DNA of 64,000 bases from Oliverocinquevirus OLIVR5 (Duplodnaviria > Heunggongvirae > Uroviricota > Caudoviricetes). The notes below the pieces were generated by a model that saw only the letters and a program-made list of their open reading frames with translations, had not been told where the DNA came from and did no database searches. Of this stretch, positions 1 through 42,161 are shown in pieces (position 1 is the first letter of the stretch; every line of letters begins with the position of its first letter). Both the position numbers and the translations under genes were made by a program. Location of the stretch: the IMG/VR virus record IMGVR_UViG_2974725113_000001, positions 87,074 to 151,073 of that record. The stretch is one strand, 5' to 3'.

Positions 1-98
1 GAAGCAGGAAAATTCAATTTCCAGGAGACGAAGGATATCTTGACAGATATCAGTGTTTCTGCTCTCGAATGCAACGCCGATCCTGACAATGGTCGTAT

Positions 99-398
99 GT
101 GGATCGAAAACTGGAAATTCGAAAGGGTCCAGAAATGAAGATGATTGATAAAACCTCAAAAGTTTTCATAGTATCTGCGGTAACAACCGATGACGAAGAC
201 AAAGTCTATTCAATCGGAAAGCGGACTCCTCGTTTCCATTTTAATGGAACGAGTCTTCGGATGACTAACATCGACAAAGCAGAGAGGCTTACATTCGATG
301 ACGCCTGGGCAACGCTCAAGGTCATCCAAATGAAACACGAACAAGGCGATATCCTCTGGATCAAAGATTGGAAAATGGAGAGAGTCAATGACGTATGA
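99..398 (+). CDS. hypothetical protein
   Basis: 99-aa ORF codirectional with downstream genes; its 3' end overlaps the next start; no recognisable motif. Confidence 0.35.
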   Translation: MDRKLEIRKGPEMKMIDKTSKVFIVSAVTTDDEDKVYSIGKRTPRFHFNGTSLRMTNIDKAERLTFDDAWATLKVIQMKHEQGDILWIKDWKMERVNDV

Positions 399-37494: not shown

Positions 37495-38841
37495 ATGAGC
37501 GAAATCCAGTTTTACGAGAAAAGAAAGCATGATCCTGACAAGGCTCTCAATTTCCCTGGGGAATACGAGCTTGAGTCGGCTGAGGTCGCTGGCGAAGACT
37601 TTCTTGCAAAGGTCGGCTCCATTGTGATCTTCGAAGATATGAATCTCCCGTACGTCACGGGGGAAATCAACGCGATCGACACGCAGAACATGGCCTCTCT
37701 TAAGCCTTTTATAGGCGGCGAGAAGGTAAAGTTCACAATCCGAGACTGCTACCGTCAAAAACTCGAGTTCGATTTTGTCCTGATTCGAGTTTCTGACCGT
37801 CGACCGATTTCATTGAGCTCCACTGCTTACACGATCAAATTCGCGTCGAAGTCCTACATCAATTCGAAGGCGAAGAAAATTTCGAAAGCCTACGCCAAGA
37901 TGAAAACTGAGGCGGCTTTCGCAGATGTCTGTATGAATTACATGAACATCCCGGCAGAAAAGCTTCAATGGGTCGAGACCGAAGCTCCTATCTCTTGCAT
38001 CATTCCAAACTGGCGTCCTGGCCATTCTGTCAAGTGGTTGGCGTCTCGATCAGTAGCATCTCGTGCAGAGTTCGCGAAGTCTCCATATACCGTCTTCGAA
38101 GAGAAGGATGGGAAGATGAATTTCCTTCCTCTCGATTTCCTTTATAACGAAGAGACAAACATCGAACGAGGAGAAATCCTTCTGAAGTTCGGCCGTCATA
38201 CGATGGATGACAATGCTTCTATCGCTCTTCATGAAAGGATGGGTGTCCATCAGCTTTCGATGGAGAGATTCGAGATCGTTAAGACTACCGACTTTGGTGA
38301 GAACCTCGAGCACGGCATGTATAATAATGCTGTCCAGGAAATTGATCTGTTCGCTCGTGATACGGAAATTCGAGAATACTCCTATAAGGAAGACTTCGAA
38401 GATTCGCAGCACCTGAACAAATATCCTTTCCTTCGACCGAACGGAATCGAAGCTCAGAATGATATGTCCTACTGGCAGACCGTGCCTAAGAACGACGCTC
38501 TCTTCTCTGACATGGACTCACGCGCCATGATCAACCCGTCTCTCTACTCTTTTATTTCGAAATGGCAGCAGACAGAGCAGATGGTTGTGAGAGGACTTCT
38601 TCCAGGATCGTTCGAGCTCAGAGTCGGTCAGAAGTATCGACTGAACATTCCTGCGTTCAGTTCGGCTACGGTCACCGGAGTCCAGTCAATAGATGGTTAC
38701 TTCTCTGGCAATTACATCGTCGAAGCGATCAAGCACGAATTCACACCAAACAACAAGTATTTCGCAACCGTCCAACTCTTCACGGATTCGGTCTCTCAGG
38801 AGATTAAACCTATCCTGGAAGTTGAAGGAAGAACAGGCTAA
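37495..38841 (+). CDS. 27: baseplate hub protein (T4 gp27-like)
   Basis: C-terminal NYIVEAIKHEFTPNNKYFATVQLFTD matches T4 gp27 [24 protein letters not shown]; immediately upstream of the gp5-like spike gene; 448 aa. Confidence 0.5.
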   Translation: MSEIQFYEKRKHDPDKALNFPGEYELESAEVAGEDFLAKVGSIVIFEDMNLPYVTGEINAIDTQNMASLKPFIGGEKVKFTIRDCYRQKLEFDFVLIRVSDRRPISLSSTAYTIKFASKSYINSKAKKISKAYAKMKTEAAFADVCMNYMNIPAEKLQWVETEAPISCIIPNWRPGHSVKWLASRSVASRAEFAKSPYTVFEEKDGKMNFLPLDFLYNEETNIERGEILLKFGRHTMDDNASIALHERMGVHQLSMERFEIVKTTDFGENLEHGMYNNAVQEIDLFARDTEIREYSYKEDFEDSQHLNKYPFLRPNGIEAQNDMSYWQTVPKNDALFSDMDSRAMINPSLYSFISKWQQTEQMVVRGLLPGSFELRVGQKYRLNIPAFSSATVTGVQSIDGYFSGNYIVEAIKHEFTPNNKYFATVQLFTDSVSQEIKPILEVEGRTG

Positions 38842-38843
38842 AG

Positions 38844-39758
38844 ATGATCGGAATTATTCCATCTGAGTTCGGCAAGAACTTGCAATTCTGGACTGGCATC
38901 GTTGAGGATCGAGGTGATCCTCTGCAGCAGGGCAGGGTACGCGTGAGGATTTTCGGACGTCACACTCTAGATACATCACTCATCCCTACGACTTCGCTCC
39001 CATGGGCGCAGGTCATGCAAGGAGTGACTTCTGCTGCCATCGGTGGTGTTGGTCAATCTCCAACTGGGATTATGATTGGAACACTCGTCCTTGGTTTCTT
39101 CATGGACGGAAATGACATGCAGCAGCCTTGCGTACTCGGGACTCTTGGCCCTATTGAAGGCGTCACGTCTGCAAACGGATCAGAAGGAAACGGCGTAGTG
39201 AACTCCGGCGGCATCGAAGATTCGAATCACAATCTACCTGGAAACGTGAAGTTCTCCGAGTCCGAACCTCCGTGGCTTTCTATTGCCCGCGGAGAGATTG
39301 GTCAAAAGGAATTCTCTGGTCCTTCAGACAATCCTCGGATTCTCGAGTATCACAAGACCGTAGGCATCTCCGGAAGCGAGACGATCCCTTGGTGTTCGTC
39401 TTTCGTGGCATGGTGCCTGAAGAAGTCTGGTCAGTCTATCCAGGGAGCTAATGCCATGGCTCGTTCATGGGAGAAGGCTCAGTGCATGGAGAAACTCGAT
39501 ACGCCTATTCGTGGATGTATCGCTGTATTCTCTCGTCCTCCGAATCCTAACTCTGGCCACGTCGGTTTCGTCGATGCTATCCAAGGTGGTTCCATCGTCA
39601 TGGTCCACGGAAATACGCAGGACTCTGTCGCTCGATCCGGTAAAAGTGCCCAAAGACTCGTTGGTTTCTTTTGGCCACGCGGATATCCGAAGGAAGCGTA
39701 TGCCATTAAGGAAGACACCGGCCCTGCGGCACCTGCGGCAAGCGATCGCGAGTCTTGA
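38844..39758 (+). CDS. baseplate central spike (gp5-like N-terminal OB domain) fused to a CHAP peptidoglycan-hydrolase domain
   Basis: N-terminus FWTGIVEDRGDPLQQGRVRVRIFGRHT...LPWAQVMQGVTSAAIGGVGQSP matches the gp5 N-terminal OB fold; C-terminus has Cys and His motifs (CSSFVAWCL, GHVGFVD) typical of CHAP amidase/peptidase; 304 aa, with no beta-helix region. Confidence 0.55.
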   Translation: MIGIIPSEFGKNLQFWTGIVEDRGDPLQQGRVRVRIFGRHTLDTSLIPTTSLPWAQVMQGVTSAAIGGVGQSPTGIMIGTLVLGFFMDGNDMQQPCVLGTLGPIEGVTSANGSEGNGVVNSGGIEDSNHNLPGNVKFSESEPPWLSIARGEIGQKEFSGPSDNPRILEYHKTVGISGSETIPWCSSFVAWCLKKSGQSIQGANAMARSWEKAQCMEKLDTPIRGCIAVFSRPPNPNSGHVGFVDAIQGGSIVMVHGNTQDSVARSGKSAQRLVGFFWPRGYPKEAYAIKEDTGPAAPAASDRES

Positions 39759-39807: not shown

Positions 39808-40116
39808 ATGACAAAGCATGTTACAAAGAACCTCATAAAGAAAACAACGTTCTTCCAGGACTTTATCCAGGACGTGGAAATTGGCACGATTGAAGACATC
39901 GAAGATATCTCGGTGTCTGCATATGATCAATTCGATTTCGAGAATTTCCTCGAGTTCGTAGAGTTCATCAAGAAGGACGAAAAGACTATCACGATCAAGG
40001 TTCCGGTAGAACACGTGAAACGATTCGAGCGAGGCCAGATGATTATCGTGGTCATTGCCCTTCAAAATGGTGAGGTCACTAATCCCGCAAACCTTTGCGT
40101 CGAGATATCTAGATGA
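39808..40116 (+). CDS. hypothetical protein
   Basis: 102-aa acidic ORF. Confidence 0.35.
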   Translation: MTKHVTKNLIKKTTFFQDFIQDVEIGTIEDIEDISVSAYDQFDFENFLEFVEFIKKDEKTITIKVPVEHVKRFERGQMIIVVIALQNGEVTNPANLCVEISR

Positions 40117-40811
40117 GGTACTCGAAAGGCGTCGATCCGTCTAAGGAATTTTGTGTCTATCTAATCGTGAATTCTTCTGAAATTTTGGCGCCTTTCTATA
40201 TCGGACAGACTTCGACTTCGAAATTCCTAGGAGATTATTTCGGTTCTGTGGCGTCGAGGAAGTGGCGGAAACTCTACAATGAAGAACTTTCGAAGGATTC
40301 CTCACGATTTAGAAAGAAAGTTCTTTATACTTTCGATTCTAAGAAAGAAGCTATTGATAAAGAGACCGAAATCTTAAAACATTTCGATGCACATAAGTCT
40401 CGTCTCTTCATCAATATGAATATCGGCGGATCGGAATTTTTCGGAGGTCCTAAAGACGAGAATGTAAGGAAACGAATTTCTGCCGCATTAAGAGGAAGGA
40501 AACTTACAAAGGAACATGTTGTTGCTGCCACTAAGCACCTAACGGGTTCTAAACGCAGCGAAGAGACTAAAAGGAAAATCTCTGAAGGAAATAAACTAGC
40601 CGTCACAGATGAACTCCGTGCTCTCCGACGTGAGATAGGAGGAAGGCCTAAGTCTGAAGAAACCCGTCTTAAGATCGCAGCTAGTCAGAAAGCCAGAATC
40701 GCTAGGAAACTCGCATCAGGAGAGATTATAGTCTCTCCAATGAAAGGAAAGAAACATTCCGAAGAGACAAAGGCGAAAATGTCTAAACCTAAACGAAGGA
40801 TTAATAAATGA
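40113..40811 (+). CDS. GIY-YIG homing endonuclease (Seg-like), paralog 2
   Basis: FCVYLIVNS...FYIGQTS (GIY-YIG); HFDAHKSRLFINMNIGG; NUMOD3-like repeats (RKRISAAL, EETKRKISEG, EETRLKIAAS, EETKAKMSKP); ATGA overlaps both neighbours. Confidence 0.65.
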   Translation: MRYSKGVDPSKEFCVYLIVNSSEILAPFYIGQTSTSKFLGDYFGSVASRKWRKLYNEELSKDSSRFRKKVLYTFDSKKEAIDKETEILKHFDAHKSRLFINMNIGGSEFFGGPKDENVRKRISAALRGRKLTKEHVVAATKHLTGSKRSEETKRKISEGNKLAVTDELRALRREIGGRPKSEETRLKIAASQKARIARKLASGEIIVSPMKGKKHSEETKAKMSKPKRRINK

Positions 40812-41563
40812 GCACGGTGAAACCCATCTCGAGAGACCAATTGATCAAGACCGTCTTGGAAAGGATGGGTCACCCTGACATTCATATTCCGGTGACTGGA
40901 CCTCAGCTCCAGCACCTTGCTCAGGAAGCGATCACGAGGTTTGTCGAATTCCACTACCAGTCTACGACGAAAGCCTACCTGGATTTCGAAATCACTGAGG
41001 AGCTGAAGGCCTCTAAGACCATCAAGATGCCTAACTTCGTTGTCGGCGTCGACACGATCCTTTCGTACAAAATCAACGACTTCCTTTATCGGACGGACGC
41101 GTACGGAGCTTCGATGTGGTCGATGCTTTCAAAGAACCATTTCGGTCAGTCAACATCTCTTTCGAAGGTCGACATTTATCTCTACGAACGAGAGCTATCT
41201 GAATGGGAAGCTATCTTCCAGACGATGCCGAAATTCGTCTTCTCGAAAACCAACCATGAGCTCGTCATCGAAGGCGGCTCGTATCGAATGAACCTCGGCT
41301 CTAAGCTCCTCGTGCGCTGTTCGATTTCGCTTGAAGACTTCGAAGGAGAGTTCTTCTCGAACTCTTGGCTTATCCGTTACATGGAAGCTCTCGTCCGCAT
41401 TAAGATGGGTGAAAACCTTTCGAACTGGTCAGACTTAGGCCTTCCTGGCGGCGTGAAGTACAACGGTCCTCAAATCCTTGACAGAGGCGAAAAGATGAAG
41501 GCTGAGCTCGAAGAAGAAATGCTCGATATGGCCTACTTCGAATCGGGGATAGTCATTGGTTAA
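40808..41563 (+). CDS. hypothetical structural protein (baseplate region)
   Basis: 251-aa ORF flanked on both sides by GIY-YIG endonuclease genes. Confidence 0.4.
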   Translation: MSTVKPISRDQLIKTVLERMGHPDIHIPVTGPQLQHLAQEAITRFVEFHYQSTTKAYLDFEITEELKASKTIKMPNFVVGVDTILSYKINDFLYRTDAYGASMWSMLSKNHFGQSTSLSKVDIYLYERELSEWEAIFQTMPKFVFSKTNHELVIEGGSYRMNLGSKLLVRCSISLEDFEGEFFSNSWLIRYMEALVRIKMGENLSNWSDLGLPGGVKYNGPQILDRGEKMKAELEEEMLDMAYFESGIVIG

Positions 41564-42161
41564 AGATTGGTGCACATACTTAATTGTGTATAACGGACGA
41601 GAGTTTCCTCCGTTTTACATAGGGTATTCTTCTAAAGTCAAAATCGAAAATGGTTACAGAGGATCAGTTTCTTCTAAAAAGTATAAGGCTCTTTGGAAGA
41701 AAGAACTTTCCTCTAATCCTCATCTTTTCAGGATTAAAATCCTGAAGTCCTTTGACACTAAGGAAGAAGCCATCAAATACGAAACCGAAATCCAGACGCA
41801 TTTTGCCGTTCATAAATCCAAACTTTTCGTGAATATGGCTATCGCCGGAGAAAAGTTCATGGGTCCTGAAATTATGGACCCTAAGGTGAAAGCGAAAATC
41901 TGCCGTTTCGGTAAGAAACATTCTGAAGAAACTAAAAGGAAAATCGGAGAAGCTCATAAAGGCCTAAAACAAAGCGAAGAGGCCAAAGCGAAGATTTCCG
42001 TTTCGAATAAAGGTAAGAAACATTCTGTAGAGACTAGGGTAAAAATGTCTAAGTCTCACACCGGATCGAAGAGGCCTCCAGATATCCGTAAAAGAATGTC
42101 GGAGAGCGCAAAATTGGCTTGGGAGAAAAGGAAAAATGGCAAACAAACTATTCTCACATAG
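41556..42161 (+). CDS. GIY-YIG homing endonuclease (Seg-like), paralog 3
   Basis: CTYLIVYNGREFPPFYIGYSS; HFAVHKSKLFVNMAIAGEKF; repeats (KHSEETKRKIGEAHKG, KHSVETRVKMSKSHTG). Confidence 0.65.
   Translation: MVKDWCTYLIVYNGREFPPFYIGYSSKVKIENGYRGSVSSKKYKALWKKELSSNPHLFRIKILKSFDTKEEAIKYETEIQTHFAVHKSKLFVNMAIAGEKFMGPEIMDPKVKAKICRFGKKHSEETKRKIGEAHKGLKQSEEAKAKISVSNKGKKHSVETRVKMSKSHTGSKRPPDIRKRMSESAKLAWEKRKNGKQTILT

What the first reader, a model, noticed from the sequence alone, without database searches (positions are those of the whole stretch)
38844..39758. gp5-like baseplate spike carrying a CHAP peptidase domain and lacking the beta-helix needle
The N-terminal OB domain matches the T4 gp5 / P2 gpV family. 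The enzymatic module has Cys and His motifs characteristic of CHAP (cysteine, histidine-dependent amidohydrolase/peptidase): CSSFVAWCL and GHVGFVD. T4 uses a lysozyme fold at this position. The protein ends at 304 aa, with no triple-stranded beta-helix. The puncturing needle or tip must therefore be supplied by another gene, perhaps 39808..40116 or a gene downstream of the inserted homing endonuclease. A CHAP spike implies cleavage of peptide cross-links rather than the glycan backbone during DNA injection.
Basis: partly seen in the sequence, partly recalled or inferred. Interest (0 to 1): 0.55.

Follow-up and report, generated by a model that had tools for sequence, protein, structure and literature searches.

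The report
OB–CHAP half of split phage spike
This gene encodes the hub-docking, cell-wall-cutting half of a phage tail spike whose needle is made by a separate distant gene; this split arrangement is already described for this phage family, so the call is correct but ordinary.

Summary
The window is the last 64 kb of Agrobacterium phage OLIVR5 (Pootjesviridae). ORF 38844..39758 (304 aa, gp187) is real. It carries a T4 gp5-type N-terminal OB domain and a C-terminal CHAP/NlpC-P60 (TIGR02594) domain. Both score above the curated cut-offs and both are recovered in an AlphaFold model. Cys184, His239 and Asn257 are invariant in 26 homologues. The protein has no beta-helix.

The needle is not missing. 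OLIVR5 gp257 (862 aa) lies 247 bp before the window start. Its C-terminal part aligns with T4 gp5 residues about 360-565. It is the only such ORF in the genome.

Kuttervirus SE14 gp5 (541 aa) is the fused equivalent: its first part matches gp187 and its later part matches the gp257 helix. Two uncultured T4-like contigs carry the same split, with the needle gene directly downstream.

ORF 39808..40116 is an acidic orphan, and the gene after the homing endonuclease is the gp13 neck protein.

gp257 also seems to carry a lytic-transglycosylase-like domain, so the spike probably cuts glycan as well as peptide.

Split gp5 (phiM9, 2015; Atu_ph04, 2019) and CHAP-bearing gp5 (CBA120, 2011) are both published. 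Low interest.

The parts
38844..39758 (+). gp187 (the 'gp5.2' type): a 304-aa central-spike subunit made of an OB domain, a flexible linker and a CHAP/TIGR02594 domain.
   Evidence: ORF confirmed. Identical to OLIVR5 gp187. Pfam, PHROG and NCBIfam hits. AlphaFold model and Foldseek matches.
38871..39161 (+). gp5-type N-terminal OB domain (aa about 10-106), the module that docks on the gp27 hub in T4.
   Evidence: Aligns with T4 gp5 residues 5-103 (E 7e-18) and with the Klebsiella phage KP1 spike (E 2.8e-18). Pfam Gp5_OB. Foldseek matches T4 gp5 with probability 1.0 and 46-48% identity over about 100 residues.
39150..39263 (+). Gly/Ser/Asn-rich linker (aa about 103-140), predicted to be disordered.
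   Evidence: pLDDT is below 50 for aa 103-128 and 130-133. This region varies in length among homologues.
39270..39674 (+). CHAP / NlpC-P60 (TIGR02594) peptidoglycan peptidase-amidase domain (aa 143-277). Putative catalytic codons: Cys184 at 39393..39395, His239 at 39558..39560, Asn257 at 39612..39614.
   Evidence: TIGR02594 at 108.7 bits over the full model. Pfam CHAP. C184, H239 and N257 are invariant in 26 homologues of 32-73% identity. Foldseek matches CwlO, LysGH15 CHAP, CHAPK and Acd autolysins with probability 1.0. Codons checked.
37495..38841 (+). gp188, a 448-aa 'tail protein' in the position the phiM9 paper calls gp27 (the baseplate hub that gp5 sits on). Its stop codon lies 2 nt before the gp187 start.
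   Evidence: phrog_350 tail protein, E 4.8e-66. Labelled gp27 in PMC4621102. Homology to T4 gp27 was not demonstrable here: no PDB hit with the single sequence or with a 58-sequence profile. 8 of 58 relatives hit Pfam YQBQ-like.
39808..40116 (+). gp186, a 102-aa acidic protein of unknown function.
   Evidence: No hit in Pfam, PHROG or NCBIfam. 18 Asp+Glu, 3 Gly, 1 Cys. No match to the beta-helix profile. Found only in Heverleevirus and ORM_20. No significant similarity to the gene at the same position in phiM9.
40113..40811 (+). Free-standing NUMOD3 homing-endonuclease gene inserted between gp186 and gp13.
   Evidence: NUMOD3 E 8e-14. phrog_314 homing endonuclease. Absent from the 97%-identical phage LG08.
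40808..41563 (+). gp13-type neck protein. This is the gene 'downstream of the homing endonuclease', and it is not a needle.
   Evidence: phrog_211 head-tail adaptor, E 6.7e-25. Annotated as a neck protein. Syntenic with gp13 of phiM9.
1..398 (+). 3' end of gp256 (window ..138) and all of gp255 (135..398). These are small tandem paralogues directly downstream of the needle gene gp257. gp257 itself lies outside the window, at OLIVR5 84239..86827, ending 247 bp before window base 1.
   Evidence: Annotation. Translations. gp257 evidence.

Best explanation
gp187 is the membrane-proximal half of a genetically split T4-gp5-type central spike.

Shown: it has a gp5 OB domain, a flexible linker and a CHAP/NlpC-P60 (TIGR02594) domain with an intact Cys-His-Asn set. 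The genome holds exactly one separate gene with a gp5C-type beta-helix, gp257 (862 aa), about 40 kb away beside the large terminase. The fused equivalent, OB-CHAP-helix in one chain, exists in Ackermannviridae. Other T4-like phages carry the same split with the needle gene adjacent.

Inferred: three gp187 OB domains sit on the trimeric hub encoded just upstream (gp188). The gp257 beta-helix trimer docks on that OB platform without a covalent link. This mirrors T4, where gp5C stays bound to gp5* after cleavage at Ser351/Ala352; here the break is written into the genome. On sheath contraction the needle pierces the outer membrane and is shed in the periplasm. The three tethered CHAP domains then cut peptide stems of the peptidoglycan locally so the tube can reach the inner membrane. 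A lytic-transglycosylase-like domain on gp257 probably cuts the glycan strands as well.
For: - Domain identity. Model and fold matches.
- Invariant C184, H239 and N257 in 26 homologues.
- gp257 aligns with T4 gp5 residues 360-452 and 482-561, and with Klebsiella phage KP1 spike residues 369-565 (E 4.7e-13 with the single sequence, 1.8e-20 with the profile). It also matches VgrG.
- phrog_430 is matched at positions 14-114 by gp187 and at 313-533 by gp257.
- SE14 gp5 aa 8-301 matches gp187 (38% identity, E 1e-54) and aa 334-441 matches gp257 aa 528-643 (34%, E 4e-13).
- One OB+CHAP ORF and one helix ORF in the whole genome.
- Contigs L006 and L007 have a short OB+CHAP gene followed at once by a 264- or 349-aa helix gene (E about 7e-30).
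- gp187-type and gp257-type proteins co-occur in OLIVR5, ORM_20, Atu_ph04 and the P10VF group.
- Published: split gp5 in phiM9/P10VF (PMC4621102) and Atu_ph04 (PMC6630229); CHAP domain in CBA120 gp5, whose ViI orthologue was found in virions (PMC3184105).
Against: - No virion proteomics or structure for any Pootjesviridae member turned up in the held literature, so the presence of gp187 and gp257 in the particle, and their contact, are inferred.
- gp257 has about 510 residues before the helix with no counterpart in T4 gp5, and the genes are 40 kb apart.
- The upstream 'gp27' (gp188) could not be linked to T4 gp27 by sequence here.
- The gp257 model is poor overall (pLDDT 47). Foldseek found nothing for it, and HMM support for its glycosidase domain is below threshold.
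- The bond cut by the CHAP domain is unknown.
- No PAAR-type tip protein was found.
Confidence: 0.75

Rival explanations
1. gp187 alone forms a blunt, needle-less spike. gp257 would be an unrelated structure, such as a second injection or fibre-like protein, or a protein ejected with the DNA, that only shares a beta-helix motif.
For: The genes are 40 kb apart, and gp257 carries a large extra N-terminal region (a helical domain at aa 111-256 and a lysozyme-like domain at 340-500). No direct evidence of contact exists.
Against: gp257 similarity starts a few residues after the point that corresponds to the T4 gp5 maturation cleavage. It includes the conserved YPY..TESGH..E.DDTPG.ER motif at the base of the T4 helix. 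The fused SE14 protein joins exactly these two pieces. gp257 has no OB domain of its own with which to bind a hub. In L006 and L007 the helix gene directly follows the OB+CHAP gene.
Confidence: 0.1
2. The CHAP-like domain is a non-catalytic structural or peptidoglycan-binding module, like RipD-type inactive NlpC/P60 domains, and wall cutting is done only by the lysozyme-like domain of gp257.
For: No activity data exist. The Foldseek list includes the non-catalytic NlpC/P60 protein RipD.
Against: Cys184, His239 and Asn257 are invariant across 26 homologues down to 32% identity, while the surrounding sequence varies. The match to TIGR02594 covers the whole model, well above its cut-off.
Confidence: 0.08
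3. gp187 is a truncated or frameshifted gp5 (a sequencing or assembly artefact, or a pseudogene) whose helix was lost or lies out of frame downstream.
For: The protein stops where fused relatives continue.
Against: No helix-like sequence occurs in any frame of the window. Six independently sequenced phages have the identical or near-identical 304-aa ORF. About 20 homologues at 45-76% identity end at the same position. The next genes downstream are an orphan and gp13, even in relatives without the endonucleases.
Confidence: 0.02
4. gp187 acts mainly as a soluble lysis enzyme (endolysin) late in infection and not as a virion protein.
For: The CHAP part matches PHROG 'endolysin' families with E 3e-9 to 2e-7.
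Against: The gp5 OB domain, the position directly after the hub-like gene inside the neck/baseplate cluster, and orthology with ViI/CBA120 gp5 (whose ViI orthologue is reported in virions, PMC3184105) all point to a structural role. The genome has a separate annotated amidase, gp031.
Confidence: 0.05

Closest known systems
Sinorhizobium phage phiM9 gp5.2 / gp5.1 (split gp5 of phiM9-like T4-superfamily phages, now Pootjesviridae; also P10VF and Atu_ph04 gp54/gp213)
   Same: This is the orthologous pair. phiM9 gp5.2 is 59% identical to gp187 over 94% of its length and has the same OB+CHAP content. P10VF and Atu_ph04 gp5.1-type proteins are 48% identical to gp257. The local gene order is the same: gp27-like, gp5.2, a small ORF, gp13, gp14, gp15. 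The split was published in 2015 and 2019. The phiM9 GenBank note already mentions NlpC/P60 similarity.
   Different: Only the placement of homing endonucleases differs: before gp5.2 in phiM9, after the small ORF in OLIVR5. The small ORF downstream is not detectably conserved. The papers do not discuss the enzyme domain of gp5.2 or the N-terminal 510 residues of gp5.1.
Ackermannviridae (ViI / CBA120 / SE14) gp5, a 537-541-aa central spike with a CHAP domain
   Same: The OB and CHAP/TIGR02594 modules are homologous (38% identity, E 1e-54), and the helix base is homologous to gp257. The CHAP-for-lysozyme swap was described in 2011.
   Different: It is one polypeptide, OB-CHAP-helix. In OLIVR5 the chain is broken between CHAP and helix, and the helix protein carries an extra N-terminal region of about 510 aa.
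Bacteriophage T4 gp5 (gp5* + gp5C) on gp27
   Same: It has the same OB domain and the same helix family. It has the same two-piece end state, because T4 cleaves gp5 at Ser351/Ala352 and the pieces stay together (established knowledge; PDB 1K28). gp257 homology starts at about T4 residue 360.
   Different: T4 carries a T4-lysozyme-type domain where gp187 has CHAP. T4 makes the two pieces by proteolysis of one chain, whereas OLIVR5 encodes them separately. The T4 tip protein gp5.4 (PAAR) has no recognised counterpart here.
Uncultured T4-like phages on contigs L006 (SRR22868767) and L007 (ERZ28593664)
   Same: A short OB+CHAP protein (322 or 373 aa) with a separate gp5C-type helix protein.
   Different: The helix gene is adjacent and minimal (264 or 349 aa), with no N-terminal extension. 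The OB+CHAP proteins have a longer linker.
Tail-associated CHAP lysins of phages of Gram-positive bacteria, and evolved VgrG spikes of type VI secretion systems
   Same: The principle is the same: a wall-degrading or effector domain is carried on the tip complex of a contractile or tail machine (general knowledge). VgrG shares the OB and helix folds.
   Different: The carrier proteins and hosts differ. They are not homologous over the full length.

Membership tests
T4 gp5-type central spike (N-terminal OB, PF06714) | Profile match to Gp5_OB above the curated threshold | tested here: met
   56.6 bits against a cut-off of 25, E 4.6e-15. phmmer to T4 gp5 residues 5-103, E 7e-18.
T4 gp5-type central spike (N-terminal OB, PF06714) | OB fold superposable on the T4 gp5 N-domain | tested here: met
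   Foldseek probability 1.0, E about 2e-8, 46-48% identity over about 100 residues to 1K28, 1PDL and 9MKB. pLDDT is about 80-87 for most of the domain, with one loop (aa 63-72) below 50.
T4 gp5-type central spike (N-terminal OB, PF06714) | C-terminal triple-stranded beta-helix in the same polypeptide | tested here: not met
   The protein ends at aa 304 with no Gp5_C or helix hit. The helix is in gp257.
T4 gp5-type central spike (N-terminal OB, PF06714) | Sits on a gp27-type trimeric hub | tested here: inconclusive
   The upstream gp188 is a PHROG 'tail protein' and is called gp27 in PMC4621102. It gave no PDB hit by sequence or profile. 8 of 58 relatives hit YQBQ-like.
T4 gp5-type central spike (N-terminal OB, PF06714) | Present in the virion at the baseplate centre | not testable with these tools
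   This needs virion mass spectrometry or cryo-EM. No such data for Pootjesviridae were found.
CHAP / NlpC-P60 superfamily, TIGR02594 subfamily | Profile match above the curated thresholds | tested here: met
   TIGR02594 at 108.7 bits against 70.55, model positions 1-132 of 132. Pfam CHAP at 43.4 bits against 26.
CHAP / NlpC-P60 superfamily, TIGR02594 subfamily | Conserved catalytic Cys and His plus a third polar residue | tested here: met
   C184, H239 and N257 are invariant in 26 sequences. Their catalytic roles are inferred from the family and were not measured.
CHAP / NlpC-P60 superfamily, TIGR02594 subfamily | Papain-like alpha+beta fold | tested here: met
   Foldseek probability 1.0 to CwlO, LysGH15 CHAP, CHAPK and Acd24020/Acd33800. 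pLDDT is about 75-94 over aa 180-280.
CHAP / NlpC-P60 superfamily, TIGR02594 subfamily | Peptidoglycan amidase or endopeptidase activity and bond specificity | not testable with these tools
   This requires an enzyme assay and muropeptide analysis.
Split gp5 of phiM9-like phages (gp5.2 + gp5.1) | Orthology of the OB-bearing protein with phiM9 gp5.2 | tested here: met
   59% identity over 94% of the query, with the same Pfam content. The position is syntenic.
Split gp5 of phiM9-like phages (gp5.2 + gp5.1) | A separate gene in the same genome encoding the gp5 beta-helix without an OB domain | tested here: met
   gp257 matches the T4/KP1 gp5 helix, has no Gp5_OB hit, and is the single such ORF in the genome.
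Ackermannviridae-type gp5 (OB-CHAP-helix in one chain) | All three modules in one polypeptide | tested here: not met
   SE14 gp5 is 541 aa and contains both pieces. OLIVR5 encodes them separately.
PAAR / gp5.4 spike-tip protein (considered for ORF 39808..40116) | PAAR-repeat profile or motif | tested here: not met
   No Pfam, PHROG or NCBIfam hit. The protein is acidic, has 3 Gly and no PAAR motif.
Lytic transglycosylase / goose-type lysozyme-like fold (considered for gp257 aa about 340-500) | Lysozyme-like fold with a catalytic Glu-Ser motif | tested here: inconclusive
   [not shown]

The most novel reading that the evidence does not exclude
The Pootjesviridae spike may be a two-enzyme device encoded in two pieces. 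One piece is a CHAP peptidase tethered to the OB platform (gp187). The other is a lytic-transglycosylase-like domain fused directly to the detachable needle (gp257), which also carries an uncharacterised helical N-terminal domain of about 300 aa. On this reading the genomic split replaces the proteolytic maturation that T4 uses. The needle protein would double as a carrier that delivers a second wall-degrading enzyme, and perhaps a further effector or pilot domain, into the periplasm. None of this has been described for the family. Pairing a stem-cutting peptidase with a glycan cutter might be an adaptation to the heavily LD-cross-linked peptidoglycan of Rhizobiales; that last point is speculation.
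Probability: 0.3. Interest if true: 0.45.

Novelty: already known. Interest (0 to 1): 0.2.

Why it matters
For annotation, the point is practical. 'Baseplate hub subunit and tail lysozyme' is applied to two different OLIVR5 genes. Neither is a T4-type lysozyme, and only together do they make up a gp5 equivalent.

Biologically, the locus is one more example showing that the enzyme module of contractile-tail spikes is swappable. It also shows that the break between the enzyme-bearing part and the needle can be made by proteolysis (T4) or written into the genome (Pootjesviridae and some uncultured T4-like phages).

OLIVR5 is being considered for biocontrol of Agrobacterium, so its virion-borne wall hydrolases could be of applied interest.

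None of this changes current understanding. The architecture has been in the literature since 2011-2015.

Tried and rejected
- **ORF 39808..40116 as needle or tip.** No family hits, acidic composition, no match to the helix profile, narrow distribution. Rejected.
- **Gene downstream of the homing endonuclease as needle.** It is the gp13 neck protein, and the endonucleases are optional insertions. Rejected.
- **Frameshift or truncation.** No helix-like sequence in any frame of the window, and the protein length is conserved across homologues. Rejected.
- **PAAR-type tip protein.** A crude motif scan of the whole genome, plus profile scans of gp255 and gp256, found nothing. Left open.
- **Linking gp188 to T4 gp27.** phmmer and a 58-sequence profile against PDB sequences gave no hit. 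The only signal was a weak YQBQ-like hit in 8 relatives. BLASTP to the upstream genes of L006 and L007 gave nothing meaningful.
- **Pfam on the gp257 family.** Only sub-threshold DUF2345 and Gp5_trimer_C hits, and no lysozyme family.
- **Literature search for virion proteomics or baseplate structures of Pootjesviridae or Ackermannviridae.** Nothing relevant in the held library.

Full report
**Identity of the window**

A 6.2-kb stretch around the finding is 100% identical to Agrobacterium phage OLIVR5 (NC_055841.1 / MT234342) and OLIVR6. It is 96.7-97.3% identical to Rhizobium phages IG49, LG08 and IC12. Window base 1 corresponds to record base 87074, so the window is the last 64 kb of the 151,073-bp record. 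OLIVR5 is a T4-superfamily myovirus of the family Pootjesviridae, genus Heverleevirus.

**The observation**

The ORF at 38844..39758 (+) exists. It runs ATG to TGA, encodes 304 aa, and starts 2 nt after the stop of the upstream gene. It is OLIVR5 gp187, annotated 'baseplate hub subunit and tail lysozyme'.

| Test | Result |
|---|---|
| Pfam Gp5_OB | aa 44-106, E 4.6e-15, 56.6 bits (cut-off 25) |
| Pfam CHAP | aa 180-257, E 4.9e-11, 43.4 bits (cut-off 26) |
| NCBIfam TIGR02594 | aa 143-277, full model, 108.7 bits (cut-off 70.55) |
| phmmer against PDB sequences | aa 10-104 align with T4 gp5 residues 5-103, E 7e-18 |

I built an AlphaFold2 model from a 26-sequence alignment (mean pLDDT 72). It has a confident OB barrel, a disordered linker (aa about 103-133, pLDDT below 50) and a confident alpha+beta domain. 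Foldseek matched the first domain to T4 gp5 (probability 1.0, 46-48% identity). It matched the second to NlpC/P60 and CHAP enzymes: CwlO, LysGH15 CHAP, CHAPK and the Clostridioides autolysins.

In the alignment, Cys184 (in WCSSFVAWCL), His239 (in SGHVGFVD) and Asn257 are invariant down to 32% identity. The protein has no beta-helix.

**Is the short length real?**

Yes. Six independently sequenced phages carry the same 304-aa ORF. About 20 further homologues, at 45-76% identity and 276-312 aa, stop at the same point. A six-frame scan of the window with a beta-helix profile found nothing.

**Where the needle is**

The OLIVR5 record annotates a second 'baseplate hub subunit and tail lysozyme'. 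This is gp257, 862 aa, at record 84239..86827, beside the large terminase gene.

- gp257 has no OB domain.
- Its residues about 513-725 align with T4 gp5 residues 360-452 and 482-561, and with residues 369-565 of the Klebsiella phage KP1 spike (E 4.7e-13).
- With a 10-sequence family profile the E-value is 1.8e-20, and VgrG spikes are also matched.
- One PHROG family of full-length gp5 proteins (phrog_430) is matched at positions 14-114 by gp187 and at positions 313-533 by gp257.
- Six-frame scans of the whole genome find exactly one helix ORF and exactly one OB+CHAP ORF.

**The fused counterpart**

Kuttervirus SE14 gp5 is 541 aa. Its residues 8-301 align with gp187 12-301 (38% identity, E 1e-54). 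Its residues 334-441 align with gp257 528-643 (34%, E 4e-13). gp187 plus the C-terminal third of gp257 therefore equals one Ackermannviridae gp5.

The break falls between the enzyme domain and the helix. T4 cleaves gp5 at essentially this place (Ser351/Ala352; established knowledge, PDB 1K28). gp257 homology with T4 begins near residue 360.

**The split recurs elsewhere**

Two uncultured T4-like contigs encode short OB+CHAP proteins of 322 and 373 aa. Each is followed directly by a stand-alone helix protein of 264 or 349 aa that opens with the same conserved motif (E about 7e-30 against the gp257 family profile). Pseudomonas phage Cygsa01 instead has an 1129-aa protein with OB+CHAP at its N-terminus.

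ORF 39808..40116 (102 aa) has no hit in Pfam, PHROGs or NCBIfam. It is acidic and glycine-poor, does not match the helix profile, and occurs only in Heverleevirus and Ochrobactrum phage ORM_20. It shows no significant similarity to the ORF at the same position in phiM9.

The gene after the homing endonuclease is the gp13 neck protein, followed by gp14 and gp15. Both NUMOD3 endonuclease genes (40113..40811 and 41556..42161) are missing from the 97%-identical phage LG08. There the order is simply hub-like gene, gp5.2, small ORF, gp13, gp14, gp15. Nothing is interrupted.

**What the spike probably cuts**

The CHAP/TIGR02594 domain is predicted to act on the peptide part of peptidoglycan, as an amidase or an endopeptidase. 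The exact bond cannot be told from sequence.

The family keeps an invariant Glu361-Ser362 in a RESGG..Y..N..G..Q context. HMM support is only sub-threshold. I rate a glycan-cleaving domain on the needle protein as likely but unproven.

**Mechanism**

Shown: the domain content of both proteins, their uniqueness in the genome, and their equivalence to a fused gp5.

Inferred:
1. A gp187 trimer docks by its OB domains on the hub encoded upstream.
2. The gp257 helix trimer binds that platform without a covalent link, as T4 gp5C binds gp5*.
3. Contraction drives the needle through the outer membrane.
4. The needle is released and the tethered hydrolases open the wall locally.

The hub identity of gp188 rests on position, the PHROG 'tail protein' label and the phiM9 paper. 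I could not link it to T4 gp27 by sequence or profile. Only 8 of 58 relatives touch Pfam YQBQ-like. No PAAR-like tip protein was found.

**What is already known**

- Johnson et al. [quoted passage not shown]
- Attai and Brown 2019 reported the same for Atu_ph04 (PMC6630229).
- The phiM9 GenBank note on gp5.2 already records NlpC/P60 similarity.
- Kutter et al. 2011 described a CHAP/TIGR02594 domain in place of the lysozyme in CBA120 gp5, and cited detection of the ViI orthologue in virions (PMC3184105).
- The OLIVR paper does not discuss the gene.

The finding is therefore a correct reading of a known architecture in a new family member. Three aspects appear undescribed in the papers I could read: the likely transglycosylase-like domain and the N-terminal helical domain of gp5.1, the recurrence of the split with adjacent genes in uncultured T4-like phages, and the exact correspondence to the Ackermannviridae fused protein. 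These are modest additions.

**Verdict**

Novelty: already known. Interest is low, about 0.2.

Noticed in passing
window 40113..40811 and 41556..42161: Two free-standing NUMOD3 homing-endonuclease genes flank the gp13 neck gene. Both are absent from the 97%-identical phages LG08 and IC12, and one is absent from IG49, so they are recent mobile insertions.
   Followed up: partly
[not shown]
   Followed up: partly
window 1..138 (3' end of gp256) and 135..398 (gp255): Two small tandem genes directly downstream of the needle gene look like paralogues. They share a C-terminal W-I-x-[ND]-W-K-[FM]-E-R-V motif and have no family hits. They could be a chaperone or tip-associated proteins, but that is a guess.
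   Followed up: partly
L006:6001-7778 and L007:6001-8187: Uncultured T4-like phage contigs carry the same split spike in a compact form. A short OB+CHAP gene is followed at once by a minimal 264- or 349-aa gp5C-type helix gene, within a gp53 ... gp25-gp6 baseplate cluster.
   Followed up: yes
L009:2992-6381 (Pseudomonas phage Cygsa01): An 1129-aa 'hypothetical protein' has the OB and CHAP modules at its N-terminus with a long insertion between them. It appears to be a long fused form of the same spike.
   Followed up: no
window 37495..38841: The hub-like protein upstream of gp187 belongs to a large family (1612 representatives at E <= 0.001). That family has no Pfam model match and no detectable sequence link to any solved structure, although the literature treats it as gp27.
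   Followed up: partly
whole OLIVR5 record: Two different genes (gp187 and gp257) carry the identical product name 'baseplate hub subunit and tail lysozyme'. Neither contains a T4-lysozyme-type domain.
   Followed up: yes
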